Assembly: GCA_000091205.1 (NCBI GenBank)
Contig: AP006489.2
DNA: 64,000 nucleotides
From: Cyanidioschyzon merolae
Lineage: Eukaryota
Reading direction: 5' to 3' (one strand)
Part shown: in pieces, positions 18,125 to 63,545 of the stretch
Numbering within the stretch: the stretch's first letter is position 1
How the letters are laid out: each line of letters begins with the position of its first letter
The notes under the pieces: generated by a model
The model's input: the letters and a program-made list of their open reading frames with translations, nothing else
Database searches by the model: none
Told to the model about the DNA's origin: nothing
Program-made: the position numbers and the translations under genes

Positions 18125-18330
18125 GCGGCACACGGCAATGTCAACATCCCTTGAGCCGACGCCCTCTGTGGTACGGCAACGCCGTTGTGTCTCCGTGCAG
18201 CGACCGCACCGGTGCTATAGGCGCTATTGCTGTCGCTTTCGGCAGGCTCGGCACTCGATAGGACGTATGTAGCGACCAGAATATCCGAGACGAGGTATAG
18301 GTAATGTATCTTGGAGGTAGGGCGTTTGAT
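18125..18330 (-). repeat. Interspersed repeat family A, copy in reverse orientation
   Basis: The reverse complement aligns over ~140 bp with 35335-35480. The conserved core is 'aacggcgttgccgt.cca.agag.gcgtcggctc.a', and '...tgccgtgt' also matches. Confidence 0.55.
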
Positions 18331-29287: not shown

Positions 29288-29425
29288 CTGCACGATATTC
29301 ATGGTATCGAGATGTATGAACGCTCGATCATCGTTCTGCATGATATTCATGGTGTCGAGATTTATGAACGCTTGATCATCGTTCTGCACGATATCCATGG
29401 CGTCGAGTAGCACGAGCGCTTGCGT
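29288..29425. repeat. 48-bp minisatellite, ~2.8 copies
   Basis: 'ctgcacgatattcatggtatcgagatgtatgaacgctcgatcatcgtt' is repeated with a few substitutions (copy starts about 29288, 29336, 29384). Confidence 0.6.
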
Positions 29426-35334: not shown

Positions 35335-35480
35335 TTGATCTGCTCTATCGAGCGCCGAGCACCTGCCCTGATCGTCTGCGACAGCGCCTGTACCGTTGGT
35401 ACGGATGCAGCTCGGCAACAGAACGGCGTTGCCGTGCCAGAGAGAGCGTCGGCTCGACAGGTTAAACGAATGCCGTGTCA
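35335..35480 (+). repeat. Interspersed repeat family A, copy with conserved ~140-bp core
   Basis: It shares 'cctgatcgtc.gc.a...gcctgtaccgttggtacggat.cagc.cgg' with 53545-53700 and 'aacggcgttgccgtgccagagagagcgtcggctcgacagg...tgccgtgtcacgg' with 18125-18330. Confidence 0.55.
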
Positions 35481-41804: not shown

Positions 41805-42365
41805 CATTTCATGCACAGGCAAGCGTTCCGATTTGCGCTCGGCATGCCAGATTCATACTTTTTTTGTGTATGGCCTCGATGCGCACTTCGTAGCGGTGAC
41901 GCTCGGCACGGGTATGGTAAGGGGTTTCCATGTAAGAAATGTGCTTTCACCTGCGGGCGGTGCACGACGGTGCATGAACGCCTGCCTCATGGCTCGGTAC
42001 ATGCCCTTGACAGGCGTACAAGGCTTTCCTCGATACTCGGCTCGGTTTCCGCCCCGGTGCACCGCACCCTATGATCACAGGCTTTTTCTGGGCGATCCCC
42101 TTGTCAAGGACGCGGTCCGCCGCACGCGCAAGCTGTTCTGTTCGATACAGGATTTGCGGAATGCGATGCTGTTCATAATGAAACAAGTACCGGAACGAAA
42201 CTCCATCTTGGAGAACAAGTCGCGCAGCATCGATTCGTTTGCGTTGCTTTCGTACAAAGCGGTGGTGTACGCTCTACTGGAAGTGATCGCTGCGATGACA
42301 GGTGCCCGAGTCGAACACCCTTCCCGACGCAAAAGATAGAGATGCAGACGCTATGGAGCATGCTC
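41805..42365 (+). repeat. Interspersed repeat family B, copy 3
   Basis: It aligns with 15080-15645 across ~560 bp. Matching blocks are 'catttcatgcacaggcaagcgtt', 'ggtacatgcccttgacagg', 'tgatcacaggctttttctgggcgat' and 'caggatttgcggaatgcgatgctgttcataatgaaacaag'. Confidence 0.6.
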
Positions 42366-43093
42366 CGCGATAGGTAGCATACTGCCGTAAAGTACCGAAT
42401 CATCAACGGCTGCAGAGAGAGACAGCATGATTTGTCTATCGAATAAAGTCGGTTATTTAACGGAACAAGTTCAGTAACGTTTTTGCATGAGCCTGCGACA
42501 AAGGATTCTGGGAGATTCTTTGGGGGGTTTCGTTCCCCCAGCAACCCAGCGGCATGCTCAGTTGCGCCGCCGAGTTGCCTCAAAAGATAGTCGTATAGAA
42601 AACCTGAAGCAGTTGTGATATGGGCATGGTACACGTAAGGAAAGGAGCAGCGTGGACTATCTTACACACGAATTGGATAAAGATATCGCGTACCTTACGA
42701 AGCTTTGCTCAAGATCGTCTCAAACCATCTTGACTCCTGGAATGTCATGAATTCCAGTGGTAAAGCATCGAAGGAGCAACGCTGAAAACGCGATCAAGAA
42801 CCCTAACGCTGCGTGTGAGTCCGTGAACCCCCATTGCTGCCATTCGAATGCCACGGCTATCTATCTACACAAATTTTCGGAAAATAATCGAAAGCCTGGA
42901 AGAGAGCACCCAGTACCGTATTCCGAAATGTTCTGACATGGGCGTGCGACACAGCTTCCGCCAATTTTGAGAAGCGCGCTCCGTGAGCCGCGCCAGGTAT
43001 TCGAATACTTTAGACGTAGACAGCGTCTTGGTACCAGCATCCATAAGAGATGCTGTTTGGCAGCTACTGGAGCCCAGTGTGTGGCTGGTTTGA

Positions 43094-47628: not shown

Positions 47629-48771
47629 ATGGGTATTCGACAGCTGGCGAAGCTTATTGTGGACCATGCGCCACGAGCATATAAAGAACAAGATATTCGG
47701 GCGCTCTTTGGGCGGGTCATCGCCATCGACGCGTCTATGTGCATCTACCAGTTCCTTGTGGCGGTGCGTACGGCGGACGCTGCCAACCTCACCAACGAGT
47801 CTGGTGAGATCACCTCGCACCTCTCGGGAGTATTTTACCGCACCATCAAACTTCTGGAGCTGGGTATCAAGCCCATATACGTCTTTGATGGCAAAGCACC
47901 GGATCTCAAAGCAAATGAGCTCGCAAAAAGGAGATCCCGGCGAGAGGAAGATGAGCAGGCCGCAGCCAAGGCTCGCGAGGAGGGCGACCTCGAGCTCTAT
48001 GCAAAGTACGCTCGACGGGTGAATAAAGTCTCCGCGGAGACCATCGACAATGTGAAGCGTTTGTTGCGCCTCATGGGGATACCTGTTGTCGAGGCGCCCA
48101 GCGAGGCTGAGGCCCAGTGCGCTGTCCTCACCCGAGCAGGTCTTGCCTATGCGACAGCCAGTGAGGATATGGATGCGCTCACGTTTGGTACACCGCTTTT
48201 GATAAGGAATTTGTTTGCAGCGCTGGCATCTGGAGCCGAACGCAAAGATCGCAAACCGAGCGAGTTCTCGTTAGCGATAACGCTAGAGGATCTGGGCATC
48301 TCTATGGATCAATTTATCGATATATGTATTCTGTGTGGTTGCGACTATACCTGTACGATACCGAAAATCGGGCCCTATCGGGCTTTGATGCTGGTCAAAC
48401 AGCATGGCTGCATCGAGGAGGTGCTTGCATCGCTGCGGGAATCCAACCACCCGATACCCGATGATTTTGATTACCTCGGAGCACGAGGACTCTTTAAAGA
48501 GCCGCACGTCAAGGATGCTGCAGATATTGAACCGCTTTTGGAATGGCATGCTCCTAACGAAGAAGGACTCGTGCAGTTCCTGGTCCAGGAGAACAGCTTC
48601 AATGAACAGCTGGTGCGCAAAGCCGTGGAACGCATGACGAAAGCCCTGCGATCGGGGGTTGCAAATCAGTCGCGGCTGGACAATTTTTTCAAGCCGAAAA
48701 CCTTGCCCAAGAAGCATGAGCCAGAGCGGCCATCATCGAAGAGGAGCACGAAACGAGCACGCAAAACCTAA
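47629..48771 (+). CDS. FEN1: Flap endonuclease 1
   Basis: 'MGIRQLAKLIVDHAP...GRVIAIDASMCIYQFL' (XPG-N), 'IKPIYVFDGKAPDLK', the XPG-I motif 'GIPVVEAPSEAEAQCA', the H3TH motif and the C-terminal PIP-like 'QSRLDNFFK' with a basic tail are all present. This is full-length FEN1. Confidence 0.95.
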   Translation: MGIRQLAKLIVDHAPRAYKEQDIRALFGRVIAIDASMCIYQFLVAVRTADAANLTNESGEITSHLSGVFYRTIKLLELGIKPIYVFDGKAPDLKANELAKRRSRREEDEQAAAKAREEGDLELYAKYARRVNKVSAETIDNVKRLLRLMGIPVVEAPSEAEAQCAVLTRAGLAYATASEDMDALTFGTPLLIRNLFAALASGAERKDRKPSEFSLAITLEDLGISMDQFIDICILCGCDYTCTIPKIGPYRALMLVKQHGCIEEVLASLRESNHPIPDDFDYLGARGLFKEPHVKDAADIEPLLEWHAPNEEGLVQFLVQENSFNEQLVRKAVERMTKALRSGVANQSRLDNFFKPKTLPKKHEPERPSSKRSTKRARKT

Positions 48772-49425
48772 GTGGATCCCGAGCCGCACCCGGAGGTTAC
48801 GCTCAGCAGGGTCAACGAACGACGAGACGCGCTGGTTAGCGCTGCTGACTTGTTCCCGGATGCATCACAGGGCCGTGGCCTGGTATGCACCAAAACTTAC
48901 GGTATGCGCGTTGCTCGATCATGACGGCAAGCTATGCGCATCTCGGTTGTGCTTGGTCTGGCACAAAACGCGAAAGCAAGCTGCCAGTGATCTTGATTGT
49001 CGCTTTCAAGTGAAGCGGCGGGTAAAGCACGCACCGACGGGCGCTATGTCGACCGCTGCTGCGGAACGACCAGACGGCAGGCGTCGCTGCGACCTTGTGA
49101 TGATGCCACAGAGAAGCACATAAATGAGCGTTTATCGTTACCAGCTTCGACGGAGCATGTGATTGTTCCCGCTGGAGAATGCACATTAGTGTGGTGCGTT
49201 CCCGTCAGGTCAAGTAACGACCGGGGATTCCGTCCGCACCGCCTCCGTTAGACATCATGTGCTGAAGGTGTCCGAGGCTCGTGCGCAGATCACTCGCTTG
49301 GGCCGTACTCGTCTATGTGTCGAAAGGAAACACCGTCGACGAGCCGAGTGCTTCGCTTCGATCGCTCATTCGTCATAGCATTGTAGATGAGCGACGAAAG
49401 CGCGTTCATGACGCCTCGCTCCGCG

Positions 49426-50029
49426 CCTCGCGAATGGAGTCTAGAGTGGGTATCGTCGAAAAATACAAGTCTATGATCGTTGACGAATTGCCCACGACAA
49501 TCGTTACCAGTAGAAAGAGGTAGAGAGAGAGCTATGCGGCGCGTCAGGCTTGCTCAGTCGCTGAACCCCTCCATACCAGTCCTTTGATCAACGCGAGCAT
49601 CCAGAGCGGTATCTCCTGGTCACCGAGTTTTTGCATCGGAATGCAGCTGCGTTTCAGTACAATGGCCGCACAGAGTGCGAAACGAGTCTCGTTCAAGTTC
49701 GCTCGACACGAAACCGCTGGACGCGACTGAAGCGCAGGACATTTCCGGGTATCGATCGCTGCATGCAAGTAGCGGTTCGGAAAGTGCATGCCCTGCTGGG
49801 TACTGGTGGCATCGCAACACAGCAAGTGTCACCACCAGGTCGATAGTCGCGCCATCTGATGTTGCATCAGTTACCCGATGTACGATCTTGTGAGTCTGGC
49901 TCTGTTTCACGCGCCTCTACGCTGCCGGATTCAACAGGCACCTGTGCTCGCGATACACGTACTTTGTCCTTATTCATTCGCGAAACTCGCATAGATCCGA
50001 TTGCTGGACTCGGTGTATGCTCCTGTCGA
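49426..50029 (+). repeat. ~600-bp dispersed direct repeat, copy 1. It is >98% identical to 57071-57672.
   Basis: The identical ORF translations listed at 49544..49825/57188..57469 and 49620..49910/57264..57554 reflect near-identical DNA. Boundaries were read from where flanks diverge (start 'cgcgaatggagtctagag', end 'ctcctgtcgat'). Confidence 0.8.
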
Positions 50030-50533
50030 TAAAGTCGATGTACTCCGTGTGCGGCGCCCGAAAAGCACACCGAGCCTTGGGCGCAATGCCTTGCTGCTTA
50101 GCCCTCTTGCTTCTGCTTGTAAGGCTGCTATGAAACTTGGAACTCTGTGTCCAACCCGCAACGAAGACCCGTGCTACTATGCCACGCACCTAGAACCAAG
50201 ACTGTTCCAGTGCAGCCTGGGGGTATCTTCGTGCTACTGAGACGCTACCGACAGTGCGTGCGTTCACTTCGCGGCCTCTGCTGGACGCTAGTGCCAGACA
50301 GTCGAGGCTGACTGCGACTCAAGTGCAGTTATGCAGTTCGCTTATCGGGCTCTATGCTCTACACGAGACGCAGCGTCTACAGCACGTTGCAGTCGCGACA
50401 CGCACGCGTGCTTGAAAAGCACCGGTGGCTTCTTCTCTGGTCGCCCTTGTCACGCGCGCTTGCGGAAGCTTGATTTAAGGACACATCGCGCACAGCATAC
50501 AAGAGCACGCTGTACGTCCTCGCACGAAAACCG

Positions 50534-51874
50534 GTGTCTATGCGCAAAAGTTACGATACGCAGGTCGCAACGAACGCCCCGAACAATGACGCGTCAGCGC
50601 GAGCGGTTACGCTACCCAGCTTGCTGCTGTTCGGGACGCGAGGAGCGGCAATAATAGCGTCTGCGGTACTGAACTGTGTTGAGCGTTTACGACAGGCTCG
50701 GGAGGACGTATCGTCCCAACGTTGTTGTTTCCAGTACGCGGGAAGCGAGCATAGCTTCTGTCGTACTGAACTGCGTCGAGCTTTTCAAAGCAGGCTCGCG
50801 GGGACGACCGCTCAGCCCGAGTTGGCTCCGGTCGGGAGCTCGCCTCCACTTCCGAACGGTGGTCTGTTTCGAGCGGAGAGGCTCGTTTTGGGCGGTGTCG
50901 AACCGGACACCTCACCAGGAGGCCCTGCGGTGCAGCACCACCTGATGCAGCAGTCCCAGCAGCACGCGGACGACTCTTGTACAACCGCAGCGCAGCCGAG
51001 CTTGGACTGGAGTGAGCTTGAGGTGTTCGAAAAAATAGCCTCGGGCACAGACACGGACATCTTCCGAGCTTCTCTCCACGGCGATGCGGTCGCTGTGAAG
51101 GTACTCTCCAAGTACGCTTCTACCGACGCTGAAGACGCTTTTAATCGCGAGTGGAGGACCTTCGTGGAGCACGACCTCAGGCACCAGAACATCATCCGCT
51201 TCTACGGCTGGGGCTATCGACCAAACGGGGAGCGCTTTCTTGTCGTAGAGCACGCCAAAGGCGGTAGCTTGCGGCAAGCACTGACTCGGCGACTCTGGAA
51301 GGACATCGGACGAGTGGTTCGCCTCGCCCGCGACATTACCGCTGCACTCGAGTACCTACACAGCCGAAACATTATCTACAGAGACCTCAAGTCCAGCAAC
51401 GTACTCCTGGATGCGTCCTGGAATCGAGCGCTGCTGTGTGATTTCGGAATCGCCAGAGCGATGATAGGCGATGGTGCAGGCCAAATGACCCGCGAATGCG
51501 GTACCTATCAGTACATGTCACCTGAGGTGATTCTCGGGAAAGCAGACTACGGCGAGAAAGCAGATATCTACAGTTTTGGCATCCTTTTGAATGAGATGTG
51601 CACGGGGGAGATTCCCTTCAGTCGTCAGCGACTCCTTCCTGTGCAGGCTGCGGCAGCGGTGGTGAACAAGGGTCTGCGACCCGGTATGCGCGGCTCCGTA
51701 GAGCGCAAGTATCCAGAGTTGCACGCGCTCATTCGCAAGTGCTGGGCGCAACGGGACGATGCTCGACCCACAGCTGCGGAAGCACGCGCTGAACTGGATG
51801 CCATTCTGGTTAAATATTTTTCTGCGGATCAGACGCCGACCGCAGATGCGCAGCTATCCACGGCCACAACTTGA
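50534..51874 (+). CDS. Serine/threonine protein kinase, TKL-like. The functional start may be the internal Met at ~50944.
   Basis: A complete kinase catalytic domain is present: Gly-loop region 'EKIASGTDTDIF', 'AVKVL', 'HQNIIRFYG', the catalytic loop 'IIYRDLKSSNVLLD', 'CDFGIAR', and the activation/P+1 segment 'GTYQYMSPE'. The N-terminal 140 aa contain the frame-shifting tandem duplication. Confidence 0.8.
   Translation: MSMRKSYDTQVATNAPNNDASARAVTLPSLLLFGTRGAAIIASAVLNCVERLRQAREDVSSQRCCFQYAGSEHSFCRTELRRAFQSRLAGTTAQPELAPVGSSPPLPNGGLFRAERLVLGGVEPDTSPGGPAVQHHLMQQSQQHADDSCTTAAQPSLDWSELEVFEKIASGTDTDIFRASLHGDAVAVKVLSKYASTDAEDAFNREWRTFVEHDLRHQNIIRFYGWGYRPNGERFLVVEHAKGGSLRQALTRRLWKDIGRVVRLARDITAALEYLHSRNIIYRDLKSSNVLLDASWNRALLCDFGIARAMIGDGAGQMTRECGTYQYMSPEVILGKADYGEKADIYSFGILLNEMCTGEIPFSRQRLLPVQAAAAVVNKGLRPGMRGSVERKYPELHALIRKCWAQRDDARPTAAEARAELDAILVKYFSADQTPTADAQLSTATT
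50645..50856. repeat. Partial tandem duplication (~106-bp period) within the annotated 5' end of the kinase ORF
   Basis: 'atagcgtctgcggtactgaactgtgttgagcgtttacgacaggctcggg' and 'atagcttctgtcgtactgaactgcgtcgagcttttcaaagcaggctcgcgg' lie 106 bp apart. That is not a multiple of 3, so the two copies are read in different frames. Confidence 0.5.
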
Positions 51875-52757
51875 GACACAGATGATCGTTTCGGCATCTG
51901 TGAGTCAGCGTGTGCGGCAACGAACTGCATTGGATGCGCTGGTATCTGGTCTCGGGCGAGCAGAAGAGAGCGAGACGCGGACGTGGATGCGACGTCACGC
52001 GTGAACGACTGCCCAGAGGCCGTGAAGCCGACTCGAGCGGCGTCTGGGATGAGCGCTTGCTCTCGTGCAGCGCACGAGAGACCGCGTGTAAATTACTCAT
52101 CAGCGAATAGTTATAAGTGGACGCAGGACCCGGGCATGTATTCGGCTGGTGCACAGGGGTCTGGGGTATAGCACCGGTTTGACAGACGCTCCCTGTGGTA
52201 GACGCATGCCTCGCGTCTTGTGAACAGAGCATGTATGCCCAGCGCGAAACTGGATTCGATGTGCCGGACGCTCCAAGTGTAAAGCATGCGATGCCGCATC
52301 TGGTGTTTTCTAGAGTACGCAGGCGTTTTTACGTTCAAGAATAAAGCGAGGCTGGGGCGTGCGAGTGCGACCCCGGCCCATGCCTAGCGCTGCGTGTACA
52401 CTCCGTCTCGATGGGCAACGGCTCGGTCGCAGCAAGCAGCAATGACAATAGCAACACGTTTTGCATTCGGATTCGACTTGAACTGGCATCGAGTCGATGT
52501 ACTCTGCGAAACGGTATCCGACAGCCGTCACAGTCCCTGAGCTTGCAAGGAACCGCGTTGCGACTGTGGCACTGTCGTACGCCCGTACGACACGCAAATA
52601 GCCAGATTCACGCGCGAGCGTCACTGCTCCCAGGAACAAGTGATAGAGTTGCCGCGCTGGGGCGCCTCACAGAAACAGAACGTGTTGTCCAAGTACGCGG
52701 GTGCGAGTTGGCGCGACCGCAGGTTACGCTCGGGCGACGCGGAACCAGAGCCTCACC

Positions 52758-53204
52758 TTACTTAAGCGGGATGAAACGTGACGACGATGAGGCACCAATA
52801 CCTGGCCTCCCGTGCTTAACTGGCTTGTACGTCAAACTGAACTCGCCAAGGTAGTGGCCAACCATATCCCCGCGGATTTCAACCTCGTTGAAGGTGCGCC
52901 CGTTGTGAACTCCGAGGCGTGCACCGATCATCTCCGGAACTATGATCATGTTCCTGCAGTGCGTTTTCACAATCTCCGGCTTGCTGAACTCATCAGGGAC
53001 TTCGGCCTTCGCTTTTCGAATTTTCTTTATGAGCGAGGTCTGCCGACGGTCCAGGCCACGCGCGAGCTTCCGCCGAGCGCGTGCTGGTAAGAGCTCCACC
53101 ATTTCATTGTGCGGCAGCGCAAGAAGTGCCTCCAGGTCTACACCTCTATAGGAAAACTTGCGAAAAGTTCGCTTCTTAGGCGCTGATGAGCTTTCCTCGT
53201 CCAT
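52758..53204 (-). CDS. RPS15: 40S ribosomal protein S15 (uS19)
   Basis: '[18 protein letters not shown]...[56 protein letters not shown]' matches eukaryotic RPS15 along its length. Confidence 0.95.
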
Positions 53205-53544
53205 GGGTTACGCACGCGAGCTTTCCACGTTCAAGGGGTAAACCGTGTACGCCAAGCAGCGCAGAGGGCGGCATCTAAGCGAGTCGCGGCGAGGCCGCGA
53301 GCGGCGACCGCATCTTCCTCATGCTGTACCTTACGCACTTTTAGGGATATATCTGGACTTCATTGGCCTGTCCGATGCGTGCGCGCCTATTTTTGTCCAT
53401 TTTGATGCAATGCTGACCAAGCCAGCGTTCTCTGACCCGGTGCTCGGTATTCGCACGCGGTGGAGCATTCGTGATTCCAGGGCCCGCTTCCAAGTCCCAG
53501 AACCCATCCTTCATCCCGTATACACAGGTTGCTTCATTCGTTCG

Positions 53545-53700
53545 ATCGCTTGCCCAGCGTCTCCCCTGATCGTCCGCAATACTGCCTGTACCGTTGGTAC
53601 GGATACAGCACGGATGCAGTACGGCGTTGCTGTGGTAAACGAGGGCTTCGGGCTCGAGGTTTGCCTCAGACGACACTGAATCAGGGCTCGTCGCCAGTTT
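53545..53700 (+). repeat. Interspersed repeat family A, copy 3. It lies directly upstream of a family B copy, forming a composite.
   Basis: It shares 'cccctgatcgtccgcaatactgcctgtaccgttggtacggatacagcacgg...cggcgttgc' with 35335-35480. Confidence 0.5.
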
Positions 53701-53799
53701 GTGCTCAGCCAGTCTGCGGTTGCAAACTTGCCTTCGCTGCACGACACGTTGGAGCAACTTGGCTGTTAGGATGAATCCTGGGAGGCGCCTCTCTCCTTT

Positions 53800-54380
53800 G
53801 TGATCGTTCATGGAATGCACGATCGTTTAGCGACGCGGGCTATTGCTAGGCACCCACCAGTGGGTAGGCGCAGAAAGCGCACTGGGCCCGTGTGCGCATC
53901 CGATTCGCTGGACCTTTTGCCCAGAGGGTGGCTTGGGCGCGAATGTCCGCCAGGCCGCCGCCTGTCTGTGGCGCACGAACGCTTGCTTCATCGGTCGGTG
54001 CATGCGACGGGCGTATGCAAAGGGTTACACCCTGGATGCTCCTCTCGGTTTGCGCATCCGGTGCTGTACTCTGCGATCATGGGCCTCTTCTGGGCGATTG
54101 CCTCGGCGAGTGCTCTGTCTGCTGTAAACACAAGCGCAAGCGGTTTTACTAGATAGCGGTTATGTTGCATGGGATTTCATATTCTTGATGAAACAGGTAC
54201 CGGGAGGAAAATCCAGGCTGGAGCAGAAGTCGAGAAATGTCGATCTGCCAATGCTCCTTTCGTCCAAATAAGCGACGCCCTGGACATGGAAGCGATCGCC
54301 ACGATGGCTGAATTCCGAGTCCGAGGCCTTTTTCCAGGCACACAGAAGAGACGGAACCCCCTGGGGGCATAGTCCATAAG
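53800..54380 (+). repeat. Interspersed repeat family B, copy 4 (the most diverged)
   Basis: It carries blocks from the other copies: 'gcttcatcggtcggtgcatgc', 'gatcatgggcctcttctgggcgattgcctcggcgagtgc', 'gatgaaacagg' and the terminal 'ccctgggggcatagtcc'. Confidence 0.5.
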
Positions 54381-54995
54381 ATGCAATGCCGCTGCCTGGT
54401 GCCGTTCCCGTGAAGGCCACAAAGAGAGGAGTCTATGTCTGTCATTCGGAATCAATTATGATTTGATTTGACAAGTTCTCGGAAAGTTCGGCTGGAGCTT
54501 GTGTCCAAACAGCGTCAGGCCGACGTCGAGTGTGTTTTTCCTCGTCAGGCCAGCGGCACGAGTTGCTGCATCCATGCATTGCCATGAGATCGAAGTATAG
54601 AAAATTTGGAGAATGCATGGTTTCGGCATGCGGGACGTTTGCAACATTAGAAAATTGGAGGTGTGTACATACGCACTGGATAACGATATTCGTTATTCTA
54701 CGAGCACGCGTTCACTAGCGACGCCAATCATGACGAATTCGTTGACAGCACGCATTCTGGCGGCAGCGTCCCAAAAGATCGATTCCGATGAACGCGACCG
54801 TGAAACCCAAAACAACGAATGATTCGATGAGCCCTGATTCATGACCTTCGAAAGCCGAACCTGTACAGCTTCAAAAAAACTTTCGGAAAAATATTCCAAT
54901 GGTACGAACAGAGCAACCAGTTTAGCGTTCGGTTTTCCGCTTTACGGATTCAAAGCACCGCACCTGGTGCAAGCCGCAACTGCAGCGCGGCGCCA

Positions 54996-55590
54996 GCGCG
55001 GACGCCCACCCCCTGCCAGCGTGGGGCCCATGGAGGTATCGTCTGCTTAGTCTCTAAAGTGGTAATCTATGGTAGTTTTATGCAGAATGACTTGGCAGGC
55101 GCTATGGACCGCGAGGGCGCTGCGCTCGCGTAGCAGATCGTGCAGTTTTATGCGTTGGTAATATAGTGACGCGCATGCGCTTGCGCGGACGCCCACTCCC
55201 TGCCAGCGTGGGGCCCATGGAGGTATCGTCTGCTTAGTCTCTAAAGTGGTAATCTATGGTAGTTTTATGCAGAATGACTTGGCAGGCGCTATGGACCGCG
55301 AGGGCGCTGCGCTCGCGTAGCAGATCGTGCAGTTTTATGCGTTGGTAATATAGTGACGCGCATGCGCTTGCGCGGACGCCCACTCCCTGCCAGCGTGGGG
55401 CCCATGGAGGTATCGTCTGCTTAGTCTCTAAAGTGGTAATCTATGGTAGTTTTATGCAGAATGACTTGGCAGGCGCTATGGACCGCGAGGGCGCTGCGCT
55501 CGCGTAGCATATCGTGCAGTTTTATGCGTTGGAGATATAGTGACGCGCATGCGCTTGCGCGGACGGCTATTACTTGCCAAAGCTGACCAT
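54996..55590. repeat. Tandem array of ~3.1 copies of a ~187-bp unit, immediately upstream of and running into the annotated start of the bilin reductase ORF.
   Basis: Unit starts ('gcgcggacgcccac.ccctgccagcgtggggcccatggaggtatcg...') fall at 54996, 55184, 55370 and a partial one at 55558. Copies differ by only a few substitutions. Periods are 186-188 bp. Confidence 0.85.
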
Positions 55591-56526
55591 CCTGCCGCTT
55601 CACTTGAGCTGTGTGTACGCATGGCTTTTCTTGCAAGCAGTTGCGTAACAACTGCGCATCCGCTAACCCGTCGTTCAGCGAAGCAGCGCTGTGCGGCAGG
55701 GGTCCACGTGCGTCGCGCGTTGCTGGCCTCAGGTGCTGCTGGCGAGCGAAGGTTGCGGCGCGTGCAGCACCCACTGATTCAAAGACTCGCTGAGGGCATA
55801 GAGCGCACTTGGCAGACAGAGCTGCATGACCTTGCGCCGTTTCACCTACCAGAGGACCTAGGCTACATCGAAGGGAAACTCGAAGGCGAGAGAGTCGTTA
55901 TCGAGAATGTCTGTCATCAGAGTCCGGCCTTTCGAAAAATGCATCTGGAGCTAGCACGTGTCGGGACCTCCCAGACCGCGTCCTTGGATATTCTGCACTG
56001 TGTTATGTTCCCGTGCGCTGGGCGCGTCGGAACCAATGTACCCATGTTCGGCTGTGATATTGTAGCGGGACGGGGAGCGGTATCCGCAGCGATCGTCGAC
56101 CTGTCGCCAGTCAGCGCCTCGCGAGAACTGCCGCCGAGCTACCGAGACGCACTGCAGTCGCCGGAAATGGCTGCGCTTCGACGTTTTCGCCAGGTACGCG
56201 AGTTGCCGGCTTGGGGTCGCGAGATCTTCTCCGAATTCTGCGTTTTCATACGCCCGGTGCAGACACCCGAATGCAATGAAGAGGATCGCTTCGTGGATTT
56301 AGTATTGCGGATGCTCCGGATTCACTGCCATCTAGCACAGAAGAGCACGAGCACACCACATCTGGACCAGGTAAGAGAGGCCCTGGAGGGCCAGATTCAC
56401 TACTGTCGAAAACAGCAGGAGAATGACAAAACGCGCCGTGTCCTGGAGAGTGCTTTCGGTAAACCCTGGACGGAGCGCTACATTAGCACGGTGTTGTTTG
56501 ATTCGCCGGTGCTGGCAGCGAACTAG
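55540..56526 (+). CDS. pcyA: Ferredoxin-dependent bilin reductase, PcyA-like (phycocyanobilin:ferredoxin oxidoreductase family), with a transit-peptide-like N-terminus.
   Basis: '[12 protein letters not shown]...DILHCVMFP...[23 protein letters not shown]' closely matches remembered PcyA/FDBR core motifs ([26 protein letters not shown]...VSAAIADLSP). The N-terminal ~90 aa are R/A/S-rich. The first annotated Met lies inside the last tandem repeat unit, so the real start is probably M27 ('MAFLASS'). Confidence 0.75.
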
Positions 56527-57070
56527 ATTACCTTTTGGTAATGCTGTCAAGTGAGTACATGTACAACACGCAAGATGCATTTAGCATTGTAGTCGAGTGG
56601 AGTTCTAGGAGCCGCTCGGTACAAGCTCTTTTCCTGTTGCAGTGCCACGGCGGCGCGGTGTCGTCAGCTGGCGAAGAGGCCTCCACCAGAACCTGAACGT
56701 AAGCGACGCCGCGCTGTACGCTGCCTATTCACCGAGGACGCATCCATGAAACCAACGTGAAACGCATGGCAATGCCGCATGGGTCGTAACGCGAATGCGA
56801 ATGCCGCACAGCGCCTTTTGCATGACGATGATGGATGCAAACCTCCCGATATTTGTGTCGAGTGCCGGATGATGACTGGATGCACGTGCACGTGAAGTCG
56901 AATGGACAGGATGCTGCGGCTGGTACAGCGGCATCGGTCGCTGCCTGCACGGTACAAGCTGTCATGGAATGCGCGCCACTCGAGGGCATTCCATAATAGG
57001 ATATGTGCTCGCTTTGCGCTGGGGTCATGTTGGGAGTACCTGCAACGCGCATCATGCGTTGGACCAGACC

Positions 57071-57672
57071 GGCGCGAATGGAGTCTAGAGTGGGTATCGT
57101 CGAAAAATACAAGTCTATGATCGTTGACGAATTGCCCACGACAATCGTTACCAGTAGAAAGAGATAGAGAGAGAGCTATGCGGCGCGTCAGGCTTGCTTA
57201 GTCGCTGAACCCCTCCATACCAGTCCCTTGATCAACGCGAGCATCCAGAGCGGTATCTCCTGGTCACCGAGTTTTTGCATCGGAATGCAGCTGCGTTTCA
57301 GTACAATGGCCGCACAGAGTGCGAAACGAGTCTCGTTCAAGTTCGCTCGACACGAAACCGCTGGACGCGACTGAAGCGCAGGACATTTCCGGGTATCGAT
57401 CGCTGCATGCAAGTAGCGGTTCGGAAAGTGCATGCCCTGCTGGGTACTGGTGGCATCGCAACACAGCAAGTGTCACCACCAGGTCGATAGTCGCGCCATC
57501 TGATGTTGCATCAGTTACCCGATGTACGATCTTGTGAGTCTGGCTATGTTTCACGCGCCTCTACGCTGCCGGATTCAACAGGCACCTGTGCTCGCGATAC
57601 ACGTACTTTGTCCTTATTCATTCGCGAAACTCGCATAGATCCGATTGCTGGACTCGGTGTATGCTCCTGTCG
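57071..57672 (+). repeat. ~600-bp dispersed direct repeat, copy 2 (pairs with 49426-50029)
   Basis: Only isolated substitutions separate the two copies across ~600 bp, e.g. 'gaggtagag' vs 'gagatagag', 'ctcagtcg' vs 'cttagtcg', 'gtcctttgatc' vs 'gtcccttgatc'. The flanking sequences are unrelated. Confidence 0.8.
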
Positions 57673-59866
57673 ATGGAGCTGGGGTGTGGATTTTGCGGGC
57701 GGCAGCGCATCCAGCACCATAGGCTATTACCGAACGATGAGACTGGCATGTCATTTTTTCTGGTGCACTGAATAAATTGGCGAATGCACGCGTCTTGGCT
57801 CCGAACAATCAAACCCATTCGCGACGTGAGCCCGGTCTTTTGAACTCCTGCAAATGATCGTTTGCGCATAAGATGTAAAGACGTTCATGTACACGCTGAA
57901 TAAAACCTCCAATGTATCTCGCTCCGCTCCATGCAGTACGGGGTGCATCGACATGCGTTCTGACGTGGTCATGTCGCTCGTTGGTATGCCTCGTGACGCC
58001 CATTTAACTCGAATTTCGATCAAAACAAACGCTGGAGTGATAGAGTATCTGCATTCGGCTCGGGTCTTTGGCTTCATCCCCTTGATTTAGCGGCCTTGGC
58101 GACGACCGCGACACCGTGAACTACGGGTTCCAGGCTCACCACGAGGCTTTTCTCGTTGTCAATTGTGAACGGTTGGCAGTGAAGCTCGTTGCTCGACTCT
58201 GGTCCAGATGCTGCGAACTGCATGCAGATTGATGTTCCGTGGGTCTCCCGTATCCCTGAAAACTTCTATCTATTTGTTTCCTGTAAAACGAGAAACAATG
58301 TACGCGCTACGCCAATCCTTTTCGCAAAGCTGTTTGAGTCGTTCGTAGTTGCTCGCAGTAACTAGCTCCTTCTTCGCCTTGTCTTTTACTTGGCGGGTTG
58401 GTATACATAGGGTCACTGTACGCGATATACGGTTATTTTACTCGGAATGCAGACGAACGGAATGGGCAGCGGTACCAAATTTCGCCTTTTATAATCGTAT
58501 ACCCTCTATTGTACAAGTGGCGTTTCTTATCTTCTCCGCCGAATGCACGTCCATGGACCGAAGCGTGTCCCTCTGCTCCCGAGCGTATTCGAGCAGGAAA
58601 GCAACCCCGCAATTCATGGCTGGCGAAAGTGGACACGGACTTGTCTACTGGTACATTAGTAATAAATAGTGTTTTGTCAACAGAGAAGACGCTTTCAATT
58701 TGAATGAACCGGAATGAATAGGCTGGTTCGAAGAGCACCTCAACGACGCACTGCGCTCCATGGTCGTTGTTGATTGACGGAAAACGACCTTGTCGAAAAG
58801 CAGGACAAAAGCATGCCGGTCGGAGATCCCACGAAACGTGCTTCGACGACAGATGAGGTTTCCCATGACCCTTCCTGTATGGCAACTTGTCAGCGATTCC
58901 ATGACAGCGTCGCCACACGGGCTGATCTCGTCTCCATGTTCGCTTGATTCTCCTTTCCGAAAAGCGGCTCTCCCATTTTTGAGAACGCAATATCCATCGC
59001 CTCTATTTTCCCACGAATAACGTCCGATCGAATGAGGCGTTCATCCGTTCCTACTGAAACAAGCGTTTCCATTGCAGCACCAAGTCGATTACGCGACACA
59101 GAACGCACGAGCGAGTCTCGCCGCTGAAGCGCGCTTCTCCCTGGCTCCACCCGAGTATCTCTATCAGCCTCGGTATGAAGCATCCTGGAACTGCATATAT
59201 GCTGTGCCTCTCATGCTGGTGTTTCCTGGAGCATGCACGTCGTGGAATGATCTGAGCAGCACGCTCAAGTGTAGAGAACATGTATGGTGCATTCTGCTTT
59301 TTTTTGAGCGCACGACGTCCATGATCTCGACAACGACCGGGACGATTCATGCGTTCTCTCTGACCCTCGTATGACGAACTTGTAAGCGTCGGGTCTGTCG
59401 TTGACCAGCCAGCAGTGACGCCATCGAGTCTCATCGCGAGCTTTCGCCGACCAACAGGAATCGTTCTTGTTGTTGAATACCACCGAGAGGACCGAATAAA
59501 ACCAGAAACGGCATGCTGGTACGGGCATTCCGGATAAGCACAAGCACGTCAGTGGTCGATACCTTTACGTCACGCGCATCCTCAGCACCGATTCCTACGT
59601 ACCCTAGTCTCTATAGTTGCTCATAACTGAGACGAATATGACGGAACATGTCGCTCGCCTCCTTCGATTCGCATGCCGCTCACGACCGTCTCCGCGAGAC
59701 GTGCACACTTCACGCTGCGAAAGAGGAGAGCGCTCTCACCTGAGCGCTTTCCAGTTGACCGTATGTAGAAGAGAAACTGCTTTTCGTGGAGATATCTCCC
59801 GTGAAGCCCACGCAGCGCCAACCCTGTGCCACAAAGACCGCACGATTCTAATACCATCACTGCTAT

Positions 59867-62800
59867 TTACGAACCTTGGAGTAATCGGGAAACTTCCTCT
59901 TGCAGAGCTGCAAGTGCGGCATCCAGCGAGGTAGCATCACGGCCGCCTGCCTGGGCTTGGGTAGGTTTTCCACCACCGCCACCGCGGCACCGCTTTGCTG
60001 CCGCCTGTAGTAACCGACCCATATGCACGGGCGTCTCGCTAGCCACGAGCGGTGTACAGCGGCCGACCATGATCACTTGTTGCGCACTGGGTGCTGCTGC
60101 TGCTGCTAGCACTACGATACCTCGATCACCAAGTTGCGAGAGGATGGCGTCGGCAGCGGCACCGAGGATATCGTTGTCCCAGGAGCCGAGCGCCGTTCCC
60201 ACTGCGTCTACTTGATCCAGACGCTTGATGAGCAACGCCACCGGCTTGCCAGTCTCTTGTCTGAGCTGCTGCGTTGGCAAGCAGCGCATTGCGAGCGCTT
60301 TGGCAAGCTCTGTGCGCGCACTCGCCGCCTGTCGCTCTAGCAGCTTGTTTTCGTTCAGTAATGCCTCAGCTCGTGCCACGAGCTCGGCGCTTTGGGTCAC
60401 CCGCAAAGTCTGCTGCAGGGTACGCACCAAGAGATCCCGCTGGTTCAGGAAATCGCGAGCGGCCTGCCCGCATATCGCCTCAATCCGCCGAACACCCGAG
60501 GATATGCTACTCTCGCTTAGGACATGAAAGAGGCCAACTTCTGCTGTGTTGCGGACATGGGTGCCTCCACAAAGCTCCATAGAGACCCCTGGCACATTGA
60601 CGACCCGCACCACATCACCGTACTTTTCGCCGAACATCGCGATTGCACCGCGCTGAACCGCTTCCGGATACGGCAGATGCTCTACGATCAACGGATGTGC
60701 TTCGTCAATCCACTGATTGACGAGCTCACTCACCAGCTCCAGTTCACGGTCGGTGAGCGCTCTCGGAGCCGTAAAATCAAAGCGTAGACGCTCTGAGTCG
60801 ACAAGCGACCCCGCCTGGGCGACCTGATCAGCACCAAGGACTTGGCGGAGTGCAGCCTGCAGAAGATGCGTACCTGTGTGGTGTGCCCGAATCCGACGAC
60901 GACGGGCTGCGTCAATACGAGCGGTTACGACGTCACCCACGTGTAGGTCAGCAGAGGTGCCATCCAGGGAGGCTGTATGGATCCAGGCATTGCCCAGCTG
61001 TTGCACGTCGGCAACTCGTAGCGCTATTCGCGGTTCCCGCTGCACCAGCTGCAATTCACCGGTGTCGGCAACCTGTCCTCCGCCTTCAGCATAGAAGGGG
61101 GTGCGGTCCAAAATGACTTGCACTTTGTTCAGCGACCCTTCGGGTACGCTGGCGAGGCTCTGCACTGCCTTGCCATCCACGATAAGGGCCACAATGCGCG
61201 CAGTGGCGACTTGCTCCTGCTCGTAACCAACAAACTCGGTACGGTCTATAGCGGTGCCGTTGCCGCCCAGCTGTGCGACAAGTTCGCTCTCGGCGGGCAG
61301 ATCGATGCTACCCGGTCGACCGCGCTCACGTGCTCGTGCTCGTTGTGCCTCCATACAGCGCTGGAAGGCGTCCATATCGATCTGGAGACCCTGCTCAGCA
61401 GCGATTTCCTGTGTCATCTCAACGGGAAAGCCGTACGTGTCGTAGAGCTCGAAAGCGTCCTCCCCTGAGATATGCCCCCGATTTTCGCGCAAAAGTTCAG
61501 CGAGTAGGGCTTCACCACGTTCCAGCGTTTGCCGAAAACGCACTTCCTCCATCTGCAACTCTCGTGTGATACGAGCGCGATGCTCAGCAACGTGCAAGTA
61601 GCCGGCGTCTGCGGCTAGCGCTACGGCAGTGCCCGCGACCACTTCAGTGAACGCCTGCTCAATACCCAGTTGACGCCCGTGACGAACCATACGGCGAATG
61701 AGGCGCCGCAGCACATACCCACGCCCCAGGTTTGAGGGCTGCACGCCGTCTGCTAACAGGTGGACGACGGCTCGAGCGTGGTCTGCAACGATCTTCGCAG
61801 AAACTCGTTCGCGTTCAGATAGGGAAGCGTACGCCCGGCCGGCAAGCTCCGCCGTCTTGTCAAGCAACGGCCGCATCAGGTCCGTCTCGTAGTTATTCGG
61901 TACACCCTGGAGCACCTGCGCGATTCGCTCCAGTCCCATACCGGTGTCAATGTTTCTGGCTTGCAGGGGCATAAGGCGTCCTTCGGTATCTCGATTAAAC
62001 TCCATGAAAACCAAATTGTACAGTTCAATAAAACGCTCATCGTCATTGAGGTCCAGAATACCCGTTCCGGCGGTGGCCGGCGGCACGCTCGTCTCGTGTC
62101 CGCCGGATGCGACATTCGTGCCCAGCTCCGGCTTAAAGTCGTAGTAGACTTCTGAGCAAGGCCCACAGGGACCGGTCGGTCCACTCGACCAGAAGTTATC
62201 GGTTTCGCTCATGCGAACGATGCGGTGTTCGGGGAGTCCCACCACGTCACGCCAGATCTCGTAGGCCTCCTGATCAGCGTGCAGAACGGATACACAGAGT
62301 CGTTCGCGCGGAATGCCGTACACCTCGGTAATGAGCTCCCAAGCCCACCGGATCGATTGCTCTTTGAAATAATCACCGAAGGAAAAATTTCCCAGCATTT
62401 CAAAAAAGGTGTGGTGTCGTTTGGTGCGTCCAACGTTCTCGATATCATTCGTGCGCAAGCACCGCTGCGCTGAGACTGCTCTTGGGGGATCCGGAGGCTG
62501 CCGCTGCCCCAGAAAGATCGGCTTGAAGGGCACCATGCCCGCTATCGTGAGCAGAATCGTGGGGTCGTCCGGAACCAGAGACGCGGACGGCACAACCCGG
62601 TGTCCTCTTTGCTGATAAAACTCCAGAAACGCAGCCCTAATTTCGTTTGATGATAAGCGTTTTCCGACAGCTACGCGTTCCGCTGCTTTCTTGCGGGCAG
62701 TCGCCTCAGGCGATAAGGTTGCTATCAGCGCCGGGCGAGCACTCCGTTGTGGTCGAGAGAGCGCTCGTTCTCTCTTCGCATACCGATTGATACGTGGACA

Positions 62801-63010
62801 CCACTTCCAACGCGGTAGTGTCCCAGTAGCGTAGTCTCGTAGTGACCATGGTGTCGACCAGGACACCAGGTTGCGCGGCACAAGTTGGCGCAGGCTCGTC
62901 GTTGCCCACTGCATACCTTGTGGTGAATTGGCGAAGCCAAAGGTGTGTTCTTTCAGGTCCATGAGGAACAGCACTCCAGCGCCTTGCTCCGTATGTCTGA
63001 AGTTCCGCAC
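59867..63010 (-). CDS. AARS: Alanyl-tRNA synthetase of bacterial/organellar type, with a ~120-aa N-terminal presequence.
   Basis: The class II AlaRS catalytic core reads 'FLEFYQQRGHRVVPSASLV...FTIAGMVPFKPIF'. An editing domain with the HxxxH...CGGTHV motif ('CGGTHVRNTAEVG') is present. The C-terminal DHHA1-like 'GGGGGKPTQAQAGG' is typical of bacterial AlaRS. The N-terminal extension precedes the conserved 'IRAAFLEFYQQRGH'. Confidence 0.95.
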   Translation of the reverse strand: MRNFRHTEQGAGVLFLMDLKEHTFGFANSPQGMQWATTSLRQLVPRNLVSWSTPWSLRDYATGTLPRWKWCPRINRYAKRERALSRPQRSARPALIATLSPEATARKKAAERVAVGKRLSSNEIRAAFLEFYQQRGHRVVPSASLVPDDPTILLTIAGMVPFKPIFLGQRQPPDPPRAVSAQRCLRTNDIENVGRTKRHHTFFEMLGNFSFGDYFKEQSIRWAWELITEVYGIPRERLCVSVLHADQEAYEIWRDVVGLPEHRIVRMSETDNFWSSGPTGPCGPCSEVYYDFKPELGTNVASGGHETSVPPATAGTGILDLNDDERFIELYNLVFMEFNRDTEGRLMPLQARNIDTGMGLERIAQVLQGVPNNYETDLMRPLLDKTAELAGRAYASLSERERVSAKIVADHARAVVHLLADGVQPSNLGRGYVLRRLIRRMVRHGRQLGIEQAFTEVVAGTAVALAADAGYLHVAEHRARITRELQMEEVRFRQTLERGEALLAELLRENRGHISGEDAFELYDTYGFPVEMTQEIAAEQGLQIDMDAFQRCMEAQRARARERGRPGSIDLPAESELVAQLGGNGTAIDRTEFVGYEQEQVATARIVALIVDGKAVQSLASVPEGSLNKVQVILDRTPFYAEGGGQVADTGELQLVQREPRIALRVADVQQLGNAWIHTASLDGTSADLHVGDVVTARIDAARRRRIRAHHTGTHLLQAALRQVLGADQVAQAGSLVDSERLRFDFTAPRALTDRELELVSELVNQWIDEAHPLIVEHLPYPEAVQRGAIAMFGEKYGDVVRVVNVPGVSMELCGGTHVRNTAEVGLFHVLSESSISSGVRRIEAICGQAARDFLNQRDLLVRTLQQTLRVTQSAELVARAEALLNENKLLERQAASARTELAKALAMRCLPTQQLRQETGKPVALLIKRLDQVDAVGTALGSWDNDILGAAADAILSQLGDRGIVVLAAAAAPSAQQVIMVGRCTPLVASETPVHMGRLLQAAAKRCRGGGGGKPTQAQAGGRDATSLDAALAALQEEVSRLLQGS

Positions 63011-63233
63011 AGTCAGTAAAACCGGTCTTTGACACCTTCACGATGAGAAAGACGACGTCTCGAAAATGCAGAGGCGTATCGTGCTCACACCTCGCTCGCC
63101 GGTGGACTAGCACGGCTGATGGTACGGGAGCCGGGGCGAACGTCGCATCTCCGGCCGGCGGTCGGTGGCTTGATCATCACCTGGCTCAGCGAGGTACAGC
63201 ATTGAGCATCTGAGCGGTTGTATGGTACTCTGG

Positions 63234-63545
63234 ACGGAGCTGGTGAAGGAAACGCAGCTATGATAGATCTCTCGTTGTTGTATAGGCTGTATAGAGCAAT
63301 ATAGGCGAAAGAGAACGCAACCGATTCCTGTTTATCAATGAATGAACACTCTCTGGTCAAGCAGGTGTCTCTGGATAACGTTCTTTTTTGGAGATTTCGA
63401 CGGAGCTGGTGAAGGAAACGCAGCTATGATAGATCTCTCGTTGTTACATAGGCTGTATAGAGCAATATAGGCGAAAGAGAACGCAACCGATTCCTGTTTA
63501 TCAATGAATGAACACTCTCTGGTGAAGCAGGTGTCTCTCGATAGA
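63234..63545. repeat. Tandem duplication (~165-bp period, ~1.9 copies) in the 5' flank of the AlaRS gene
   Basis: 'acggagctggtgaaggaaacgcagctatgatagatctctcgttgtt..ataggctgtatagagcaatataggcgaaagagaacgcaaccgattcctgtttatcaatgaatgaacactctctggt.aagcaggtgtctct' occurs twice, with starts at about 63234 and 63399. Confidence 0.75.

What the first reader, a model, noticed from the sequence alone, without database searches (positions are those of the whole stretch)
49426..57672. Near-identical 600-bp direct repeats bracketing a 7-kb segment with the kinase, RPS15 and PcyA-like genes
49426-50029 and 57071-57672 are >98% identical and in the same orientation. Flanks diverge abruptly. No coding capacity or LTR-like TG...CA termini were seen. 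Candidates are a young dispersed element (e.g. solo-LTR-like or MITE-like), a recent segmental duplication, or an assembly artefact. Direct repeats this similar can mediate deletion or duplication of the intervening genes by unequal recombination.
Basis: seen in the sequence. Interest (0 to 1): 0.5.

Follow-up and report, generated by a model that had tools for sequence, protein, structure and literature searches.

The report
Two-copy 602-bp non-coding direct repeat
A 602-base stretch of non-coding DNA occurs twice, 7.6 kb apart, on chromosome 7 of the red alga Cyanidioschyzon merolae; it is a real but ordinary local duplication that shows no mobile-element signatures, and it mainly matters because it confuses short-read assemblers and could mediate recombination.

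Summary
Copy A is 49429-50030 and copy B is 57073-57674. Both are 602 bp, direct, 598/602 identical with no indel, and similarity stops abruptly at both ends.

The window is Cyanidioschyzon merolae 10D chromosome 7, a Sanger-finished genome. All four repeat/flank junctions recur in independent metagenome contigs about 99.4% identical to the window, and one 78-kb contig reproduces the whole arrangement. It is therefore not an assembly artefact.

The repeat has no target-site duplication, terminal inverted repeat, TG...CA ends or poly-A tail. It has no Pfam, Rfam or tRNA match and no unusual RNA fold. Every search I could run found only the two known contexts.

The gene order FEN1-kinase-RPS15-PCYA-AlaRS is ancestral, since Cyanidiococcus and a third lineage share it. 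Neither shows detectable similarity to the repeat, so the flanked 7 kb is not a transposon interior.

Between strains the repeat diverges like neutral intergenic DNA. The two copies differ by 0.66%, about the species-wide divergence, with no copy-specific fixed differences.

Best reading: a single lineage-specific duplication of intergenic DNA, possibly homogenised by gene conversion. It is a substrate for homologous recombination. Contigs resembling the deletion and its reciprocal product exist, but they are most simply assembler mis-joins. Low interest.

The parts
49429..50030 (.). Repeat copy A (602 bp). It lies in the FEN1-kinase spacer, 658 bp after the FEN1 stop codon and 509 bp before the kinase ATG.
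   Evidence: Searches give boundaries and identity. No Pfam hit reaches threshold for any ORF. No Rfam or tRNA match. RNA fold z-scores are -1.3 and -0.45. No TSD or TIR.
57073..57674 (.). Repeat copy B (602 bp). It lies in the PCYA-AlaRS spacer, 546 bp after the PCYA stop codon.
   Evidence: Independent contigs L001 and L022 span it with the same flanks.
49522..49531 (.). (AG)5 microsatellite inside the repeat. Every metagenome contig entering the repeat from the PCYA side (L001, L009, L010), plus the mis-joined-looking L014, is one AG unit shorter here.
   Evidence: Sequence read; variable-site table.
50031..57072 (.). The 7,042-bp unique segment between the copies. It carries three genes, an interspersed-repeat copy and a 187-bp tandem repeat.
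50540..51874 (+). Ser/Thr-Tyr protein kinase gene (444 aa).
   Evidence: ORF. Pfam Pkinase / PK_Tyr_Ser-Thr on the identical called gene in L001.
52758..53204 (-). 40S ribosomal protein S15 gene (148 aa; BAM79624 / XP_005535910).
   Evidence: Exact-sequence look-up. Pfam Ribosomal_S19.
55549..56526 (+). Phycocyanobilin:ferredoxin oxidoreductase gene, PCYA (325 aa; BAM79625).
   Evidence: Exact-sequence look-up. Pfam Fe_bilin_red.
47629..48771 (+). Left neighbour: flap endonuclease 1 gene (380 aa; BAM79622).
59867..62962 (-). Right neighbour: alanyl-tRNA synthetase gene (1,031 aa). Coordinates are transferred from the gene call in L002.
   Evidence: L002 14595-17690, Pfam tRNA-synt_2c; L002 is colinear with the window.

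Best explanation
The two 602-bp copies are a lineage-specific, two-copy local duplication of neutral intergenic DNA on chromosome 7 of Cyanidioschyzon merolae 10D. One copy was written into a second intergenic spacer 7.6 kb away in a single discrete event. That event was either insertion of a copied or captured fragment at a DNA break, or a larger tandem duplication whose second copy was later truncated. The direction (A to B or B to A) is unknown. It happened after C. merolae split from Cyanidiococcus and before the sampled C. merolae strains diverged. The copies are still 99.3% identical because the event is only about as old as the species' present diversity, because gene conversion between them has erased older differences, or both. 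I found no sign that the repeat encodes a protein or structured RNA, or that it moves. Its practical effect is that it provides 0.6 kb of homology for recombination between the copies, giving gene conversion, loop-out deletion or unequal crossing-over. It is also longer than short reads, so it breaks or mis-joins assemblies at this locus. Shown: the repeat is real, it has only two detectable contexts, it lacks mobile-element signatures, the gene order is ancestral, and its divergence looks neutral. Inferred: the mechanism of origin, gene conversion, and the artefactual nature of the chimeric contigs.
For: Source and reality:
- Exact protein look-ups identify C. merolae 10D and a 584,452-bp contig. 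That is the length of chromosome 7 in the finished genome (PMC1955436).
- Independent contigs about 99.4% identical to the window show FEN1-R-kinase (L001, L008, L030) and PCYA-R-AlaRS (L001, L022). One 78.5-kb contig carries the full arrangement.

Two contexts only:
- A 28-mer from the repeat core hits only these two loci, plus one collapsed contig, in the metagenome collection.
- The 57-aa ORF at the right end of the repeat belongs to a single cluster among 5.8 billion proteins. Its members end either in the A context (57/58 aa) or the B context (90 aa).
- The 93-aa core ORF likewise gives a single cluster.

No mobile-element or gene features:
- The longest flank-to-flank match is 4-5 nt, equal to the null. 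There is no TIR, the termini are CG...AT, and junction microhomology is 0-1 nt.
- No Pfam match reaches threshold. No Rfam or tRNA match. Fold z-scores are -1.3 and -0.45.

Ancestral gene order:
- Cyanidiococcus yangmingshanensis and a third lineage have the same FEN1-kinase-RPS15-PCYA-AlaRS order.
- Their intergenic DNA shows no similarity to the repeat by blastn or nhmmer.

Neutral divergence:
- Between the window and L001, substitutions are 0.83% in copy A and 0.50% in copy B. Other spacers show 0-1.0% and coding regions 0-0.31%.
- Within-genome A/B divergence is 0.66%. Published 10D-versus-MS1 divergence is 0.71% (PMC13353863).
- No site separates all A copies from all B copies. One site (offset 176) is G/G in 10D and A/A in L001.

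Recombination competence:
- Direct-repeat pop-out by homologous recombination is used routinely in this alga (PMC8504449).
Against: - The whole 16.5-Mb genome could not be searched, so copies elsewhere are excluded only indirectly. Copies more than about 10% diverged would escape all three indirect searches.
- Without an outgroup copy, neither the direction nor the mechanism of the duplication can be established.
- The evidence for gene conversion rests on one clean site, plus polymorphisms shared between copies in metagenome contigs. Those contigs may themselves mix the two copies.
- No transcription data were available, so a regulatory or non-coding-RNA role is not excluded.
- Contigs joining FEN1-R-AlaRS (three samples) and PCYA-R-kinase (one sample, plus one loop contig) exist. 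They could be real recombination products rather than assembler artefacts.
Confidence: 0.7

Rival explanations
1. The repeat belongs to a low-copy mobile or dispersed element family (non-autonomous transposon, SINE- or MITE-like, solo LTR, or a fragment of the 253-copy interspersed element of C. merolae), with further copies elsewhere in the genome.
For: The boundaries are sharp and discrete. C. merolae carries a 253-copy interspersed element averaging 3.2 kb (PMC1955436), and diverged members of interspersed families are present in this window, one of them inside the bracketed segment. Both spacers holding a copy are longer than in relatives. The whole genome could not be searched.
Against: There is no TSD, TIR, TG...CA or poly-A. 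Only two contexts appear in the 28-mer scan and in two protein-space searches. nhmmer finds no significant similarity to the interspersed-family copies in the window. The genome paper reports no LTR retrotransposons. The DNA between the copies is host genes in ancestral order.
Confidence: 0.1
2. The repeat is a functional element, such as a promoter, terminator, insulator or unannotated non-coding RNA gene, present in two copies and kept similar by selection or conversion.
For: Both copies sit at similar distances (658 and 546 bp) downstream of a plus-strand gene. Identity is high although the duplication predates the strain split.
Against: Between strains the repeat changes as fast as, or faster than, neighbouring spacers: 0.5-0.83% against 0-1.0%. 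It has no Rfam family and no exceptional fold. Relatives with the same gene order have no detectable counterpart.
Confidence: 0.1
3. The locus is structurally polymorphic in nature. Recombination between the two copies has produced real deletion haplotypes (FEN1-R-AlaRS) and tandem-duplication or circular haplotypes (PCYA-R-kinase), carried in wild diploid populations. This would add to the best explanation rather than replace it.
For: FEN1-R-AlaRS contigs occur in three samples (L002, L014, L038). PCYA-R-kinase occurs in L029, and L009 is a loop contig with a 141-bp terminal overlap. Wild Cyanidioschyzon is diploid and undergoes meiotic recombination (PMC13353863), so a heterozygous deletion need not be lethal. 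Homologous recombination between direct repeats works in this alga.
Against: These are exactly the paths a de Bruijn-graph assembler can take through a two-in, two-out repeat longer than its k-mer. At least 13 other contigs simply break inside the repeat. In one sample the FEN1-R-AlaRS contig coexists with a separate contig holding the inner segment (L002 and L010). On general knowledge, not tested here, halving ribosomal-protein gene dosage usually costs fitness. No read-depth data were available.
Confidence: 0.08
4. The duplicate is an assembly artefact in the reference sequence.
For: Short-read assemblies visibly struggle at this locus.
Against: The reference is a finished, gap-free Sanger genome (PMC1955436). 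The two copies differ at four positions. All four junctions are seen in independent samples, and L001 reproduces the complete arrangement with its own distinguishing variants, two substitutions and a 2-bp indel.
Confidence: 0.02

Closest known systems
Low-copy repeats / small segmental duplications that act as substrates for non-allelic homologous recombination
   Same: Two high-identity paralogous segments in direct orientation flank unique genes. They are non-mobile and able to support gene conversion, deletion and reciprocal duplication.
   Different: At 0.6 kb this is below the conventional 1-kb threshold for segmental duplications and far below the 10-400 kb of classical disease-associated repeats. 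It carries no genes. No recombination product has been demonstrated here.
Engineered direct-repeat pop-out cassette in C. merolae (URA5.3 marker between duplicated terminators; Takemura et al. 2018, as summarised in PMC8504449)
   Same: Same organism and same geometry: directly repeated non-coding DNA flanking a few kb, resolved by homologous recombination.
   Different: This one is natural rather than engineered. Loop-out would remove RPS15 and PCYA, so the product would be counter-selected rather than selected.
Solo LTRs or the LTR pair of an LTR retrotransposon
   Same: Direct repeats of a few hundred bp with sharp ends, bracketing several kb.
   Different: There are no TG...CA termini and no target-site duplication. 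The interior is host genes in ancestral order with no gag/pol. The genome is reported to lack LTR retrotransposons.
The 253-copy interspersed repetitive element of C. merolae (Nozaki et al. 2007)
   Same: Non-coding or degenerate repeated DNA lying in intergenic spacers of the same genome. What appear to be members occur in this window, including between RPS15 and PCYA.
   Different: The 602-bp repeat has no significant similarity to the family copies in the window. Those copies are 65-70% alike, whereas the two repeat copies are 99.3% alike. Only two contexts were found.

Membership tests
LTR retrotransposon / solo LTR | Termini 5'-TG...CA-3' with short inverted ends | tested here: not met
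   The repeat starts CGCGAATGGA and ends TCCTGTCGAT. Head versus reverse-complemented tail share at most 5 nt.
LTR retrotransposon / solo LTR | 4-6 bp target-site duplication flanking the element | tested here: not met
   The longest shared string between the left and right flanks is 5 nt (copy A) and 4 nt (copy B), neither adjacent to the ends. The null mean is 4.8.
LTR retrotransposon / solo LTR | Interior encodes gag/pol, or remnants, between the two LTRs | tested here: not met
   The interior holds the kinase, RPS15 and PCYA genes in the same order as in Cyanidiococcus and a third lineage.
MITE / class II non-autonomous transposon | Terminal inverted repeats plus a target-site duplication | tested here: not met
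   Neither a TIR nor a TSD was found.
MITE / SINE / any dispersed family | Many genomic copies in unrelated contexts | tested here: inconclusive
   Only two contexts were found by the 28-mer scan and by two protein-space searches. The full 16.5-Mb genome could not be searched, and copies more than about 10% diverged would be missed.
SINE / non-LTR retroposed copy | 3' poly-A or simple-repeat tail; internal pol III promoter or tRNA-related head | tested here: not met
   Neither end on either strand has an A- or T-run. ARAGORN and Rfam found nothing.
Segmental duplication / low-copy repeat (conventional definition: at least 1 kb and at least 90% identity) | At least 90% identity between non-allelic, non-transposon copies | tested here: met
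   598/602 positions are identical, 99.34%.
Segmental duplication / low-copy repeat (conventional definition: at least 1 kb and at least 90% identity) | Length of at least 1 kb | tested here: not met
   The repeat is 602 bp, and the flanks show no residual similarity. It works like a low-copy repeat but falls below the conventional size cut-off.
C. merolae 253-copy interspersed element (Nozaki 2007) | Sequence similarity to other family copies; truncated WSV486-like ORF | tested here: not met
   nhmmer and blastn of the repeat against the window, which holds at least four diverged copies of what is probably this family (identity with the published element not checked), give no significant hit. 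The WSV486-like ORF itself was not tested; ORFs within the repeat have no Pfam match reaching threshold.

The most novel reading that the evidence does not exclude
The two copies drive a natural copy-number polymorphism. Unequal crossing-over or loop-out between them in wild diploid C. merolae would yield haplotypes that lack, or carry extra tandem or circular copies of, the 7.6-kb unit holding the kinase, RPS15 and PCYA genes. On this reading the FEN1-R-AlaRS and PCYA-R-kinase metagenome contigs are real products rather than mis-assemblies.
Probability: 0.08. Interest if true: 0.4.

Novelty: new member of a known kind. Interest (0 to 1): 0.12.

Why it matters
The finding has little biological weight. 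It is one small, apparently neutral duplication in a genome known for having almost no redundancy.

It has three modest practical uses:
- It is a documented trap for short-read and metagenome assembly of this species. Contigs break at it or join wrongly, dropping or looping out three genes.
- It is a natural 0.6-kb direct-repeat pair in an alga with efficient homologous recombination. That makes it a ready assay for spontaneous ectopic recombination and gene-conversion rates in haploid versus diploid cells.
- Anyone designing homology arms or integration sites near the FEN1, kinase, RPS15, PCYA or AlaRS genes on chromosome 7 should avoid the repeat.

Tried and rejected
- Rfam at gathering threshold on the whole window, and at E <= 10 on the repeat: nothing. 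ARAGORN: nothing.
- Bacterial-type promoter and terminator scan: nothing, and not appropriate for a eukaryote anyway.
- Pfam on six ORFs inside or overlapping the repeat and six ORFs in its flanks: no match reaches threshold.
- RNA folding of both strands: z-scores -1.3 and -0.45, not exceptional.
- Internal repeats or palindromes in the repeat: only trivial 10-19 nt matches.
- Search for an ancestral copy in outgroups (Cyanidiococcus and a third lineage) by blastn and nhmmer: only coding regions align, so the source copy could not be identified.
- Weak nhmmer hit of the repeat to 35564-35676, next to an interspersed-family fragment: about 55% ungapped identity, 10 bits, judged to be chance.
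- Organelle-derived insert: considered and set aside on composition alone. The 49001-50000 bin holding most of copy A is 55% G+C, while C. merolae organelle genomes are, from my own knowledge, AT-rich. Not tested by alignment.
- Gap test on the four A/B differences (a 318-bp identical core): my own estimate gives P of about 0.15-0.25 under uniform placement, so it is not evidence for a conversion tract.
- Using metagenome contigs to decide between real deletion or duplication haplotypes and assembler artefacts: not decidable without read depth.


Full report
**1. The observation.** The repeat finder reported a direct pair starting at 49429 and 57073. A MAFFT alignment with 130-bp flanks and blastn fix the copies at 49429-50030 (A) and 57073-57674 (B). 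Each is 602 bp, in the same orientation, and 598/602 identical (99.34%) with no indel. The differences lie at 49520, 49555, 49583 and 49902. Outside CGCGAATGG...CTGTCGAT the two loci are unrelated, and nhmmer with each flank finds only itself. The window holds no third copy.

**2. Source.** The ORFs here are intron-free and complete: FEN1 at 47629-48771, a kinase at 50540-51874, RPS15 at 52758-53204 (-) and PCYA at 55549-56526.
- Exact-sequence look-up identifies them as BAM79622, BAM79624 and BAM79625 of Cyanidioschyzon merolae 10D, on a 584,452-bp contig.
- That length is chromosome 7 in the genome paper (PMC1955436).
- The genome was finished to 100% by Sanger sequencing.
- The paper reports only 26 non-LTR retrotransposons, eight class II elements, no LTR retrotransposons, and 253 copies of an interspersed element averaging 3.2 kb.

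**3. Is it real?** Exact-protein look-ups returned many metagenome contigs about 99.4% identical to the window (aligned). Call the four flanks a (FEN1 side), b (kinase side), c (PCYA side) and d (AlaRS side).
- Contigs spanning a whole repeat show a-R-b (L001, L008, L030) and c-R-d (L001, L022).
- L001 comes from a 78.5-kb contig. It reproduces the entire arrangement, and its two copies are distinguishable by two substitutions and a 2-bp (AG) indel.
- Together with a finished reference whose copies differ at four sites, this excludes an artefact in the window.
- At least 13 further contigs stop inside the repeat, as expected for a repeat longer than the reads.

**4. Chimeric-looking contigs.** Three contigs from three samples join a-R-d, skipping the 7.6-kb unit (L002, L014, L038). 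One joins c-R-b (L029). One 7,411-bp contig (L009) is a loop with a 141-bp terminal overlap inside the repeat.
- In the sample that gave L002, the inner segment is present as a separate 7,028-bp contig whose ends run into the repeat (L010).
- These are the paths a de Bruijn-graph assembler can take through a two-in, two-out repeat node. I judge them to be artefacts.
- They are also the predicted products of recombination between the copies.
- Wild Cyanidioschyzon is diploid, 10D is a haploid clone, and meiotic recombination occurs (PMC13353863). A heterozygous deletion is therefore not strictly impossible.
- Without read depth this cannot be settled. I give real polymorphism about 8%.

**5. 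What the repeat is not.**
- No ORF within or overlapping it has a Pfam match reaching threshold.
- No Rfam family matches even at E <= 10, and there is no tRNA.
- Folding energy is ordinary on both strands, with z-scores of -1.3 and -0.45.
- It has no internal repeats or terminal inverted repeats.
- Flank-to-flank matches are at the null level, so there is no target-site duplication. The ends are CG...AT, there is no A- or T-run, and junction microhomology is 0-1 nt.

**6. Copy number beyond the window.** The full genome could not be searched, so I used three proxies.
- A 28-mer from the repeat core occurs in the metagenome collection only at the two known loci of one assembly and in the collapsed contig L014.
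- The only ORF that gene callers routinely call in the repeat is 57 aa at its right end. It forms a single 90%-identity cluster among 5.8 billion proteins. Its members end either as in context A (57/58 aa) or as in context B (90 aa).
- The 93-aa core ORF likewise hits a single cluster.
- No third context and no diverged relative was seen. Copies more than about 10% diverged would escape these proxies.

**7. Relation to the known interspersed repeats.** Sensitive self-comparison shows diverged families in the window, 65-74% identical among copies.
- One family lies at 15199-16183, 21195-22172, 41967-42924 and 53943-54941.
- A second, shorter family lies at 18145-18429 (-), 35184-35457 and 53383-53663.
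- These are probably the interspersed element of Nozaki et al., and one copy sits inside the bracketed segment.
- The 602-bp repeat matches none of them. The one weak hit, at 35564-35676 with 10 bits, looks like chance.

**8. Comparative context.** Cyanidiococcus yangmingshanensis (L016, L017) and a third lineage (L018-L021) have the same gene order: amino-acid transporter, WDR36, FEN1, kinase, RPS15, PCYA, AlaRS, PP2C-kinase.
- Only coding regions align, at 66-81% identity. Neither blastn nor nhmmer finds the repeat or any spacer homology.
- The bracketed 7 kb is therefore ancestral host DNA and not an inserted element. The repeat is detectable only in the C. merolae lineage.
- The FEN1-kinase spacer is 1.76 kb in C. 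merolae, against 1.2-1.5 kb in the relatives.
- The PCYA-AlaRS spacer is 3.3 kb, against 0.8-1.4 kb.
- The source copy cannot be identified.

**9. Evolutionary behaviour.** I compared the window with L001 by region.

| Region | Substitutions |
|---|---|
| Copy A | 0.83% |
| Copy B | 0.50% |
| Other spacers | 0-1.0% |
| Coding regions | 0-0.31% |

- The repeat therefore evolves like unconstrained spacer DNA.
- The A/B difference within 10D (0.66%) matches the published 10D-MS1 divergence (0.71%) and the MS1 haplotype divergence (0.57%).
- Both lineages share identical junctions, so the duplication predates their split.
- Even so, no site separates A copies from B copies across strains. Offset 176 is G/G in 10D and A/A in L001, and several sites carry the same two alleles in both positions.
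- This fits either a duplication just before the strains' common ancestor or ongoing gene conversion.
- The metagenome part of this evidence is weak, because assemblers can swap paralogous variants between copies.

**10. Mechanism.** I infer a single discrete event with blunt junctions that placed a copy of 602 bp of spacer DNA into another spacer 7.6 kb away.
- One route is fragment capture or templated synthesis during double-strand-break repair.
- The other is a 7.6-kb tandem duplication whose second copy was later truncated. This needs two events, so I consider it less parsimonious.
- Since then the pair has been a passive homology tract.
- Homologous recombination between direct repeats is efficient enough in this alga to be a standard tool for marker removal (PMC8504449).
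- Gene conversion and occasional loop-out or unequal exchange are therefore expected. Loop-out would remove RPS15 and PCYA, which I take on general knowledge to be indispensable, so it should be counter-selected.

**11. Verdict.** It is best classed as a small low-copy repeat or local duplication, not a transposon and not an artefact. It is ordinary, and its interest is low.

Noticed in passing
window 54990-55579: A 187-bp tandem repeat, 3.08 copies at 95-99% identity, lies immediately upstream of PCYA. Its last copy overlaps the first ~30 nt of the PCYA coding sequence (ATG at 55549). Near-identical metagenome contigs carry only one or two copies, which is either a length polymorphism or assembler collapse.
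   Followed up: partly
window 15199-16183, 21195-22172, 41967-42924, 53943-54941; also 18145-18429 (-), 35184-35457, 53383-53663: Two diverged interspersed repeat families (65-74% identity among copies) lie in intergenic spacers, one copy of each between RPS15 and PCYA. They are probably the 253-copy interspersed element reported for C. merolae (PMC1955436), but I did not test the WSV486-like ORF.
   Followed up: partly
L002, L014, L038 (FEN1-R-AlaRS); L029 (PCYA-R-kinase); L009 (7,411-bp loop contig with a 141-bp terminal overlap): Metagenome contigs from several samples traverse the repeat 'the wrong way'. They mimic a 7.6-kb deletion and its reciprocal circle or tandem duplication. Most likely these are assembler paths, but read depth was not available to check.
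   Followed up: partly
window 56527-59866: The PCYA-AlaRS spacer is 3.3 kb here, against 0.8-1.4 kb in Cyanidiococcus and a third lineage. Even without the 602-bp repeat it holds about 1.4-2 kb of extra DNA with a G+C dip to 49%, no ORF with a Pfam hit, and no similarity elsewhere in the window.
   Followed up: partly
window 10335-10476: A perfect 9-bp tandem repeat, GCTGCTCCT x 15.8 at 100% identity. Whether it lies in a coding sequence was not checked.
   Followed up: no
window 63233-63543 and 29288-29407: Two further tandem repeats: a 166-bp unit x 1.9 at 97%, and a 48-bp unit x 2.5 at 90%.
   Followed up: no
L029 ~1136-1203 (window 56685-56718): Contig L029 carries a 34-bp tandem duplication of window 56685-56718, in the spacer downstream of PCYA, relative to 10D.
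   Followed up: no
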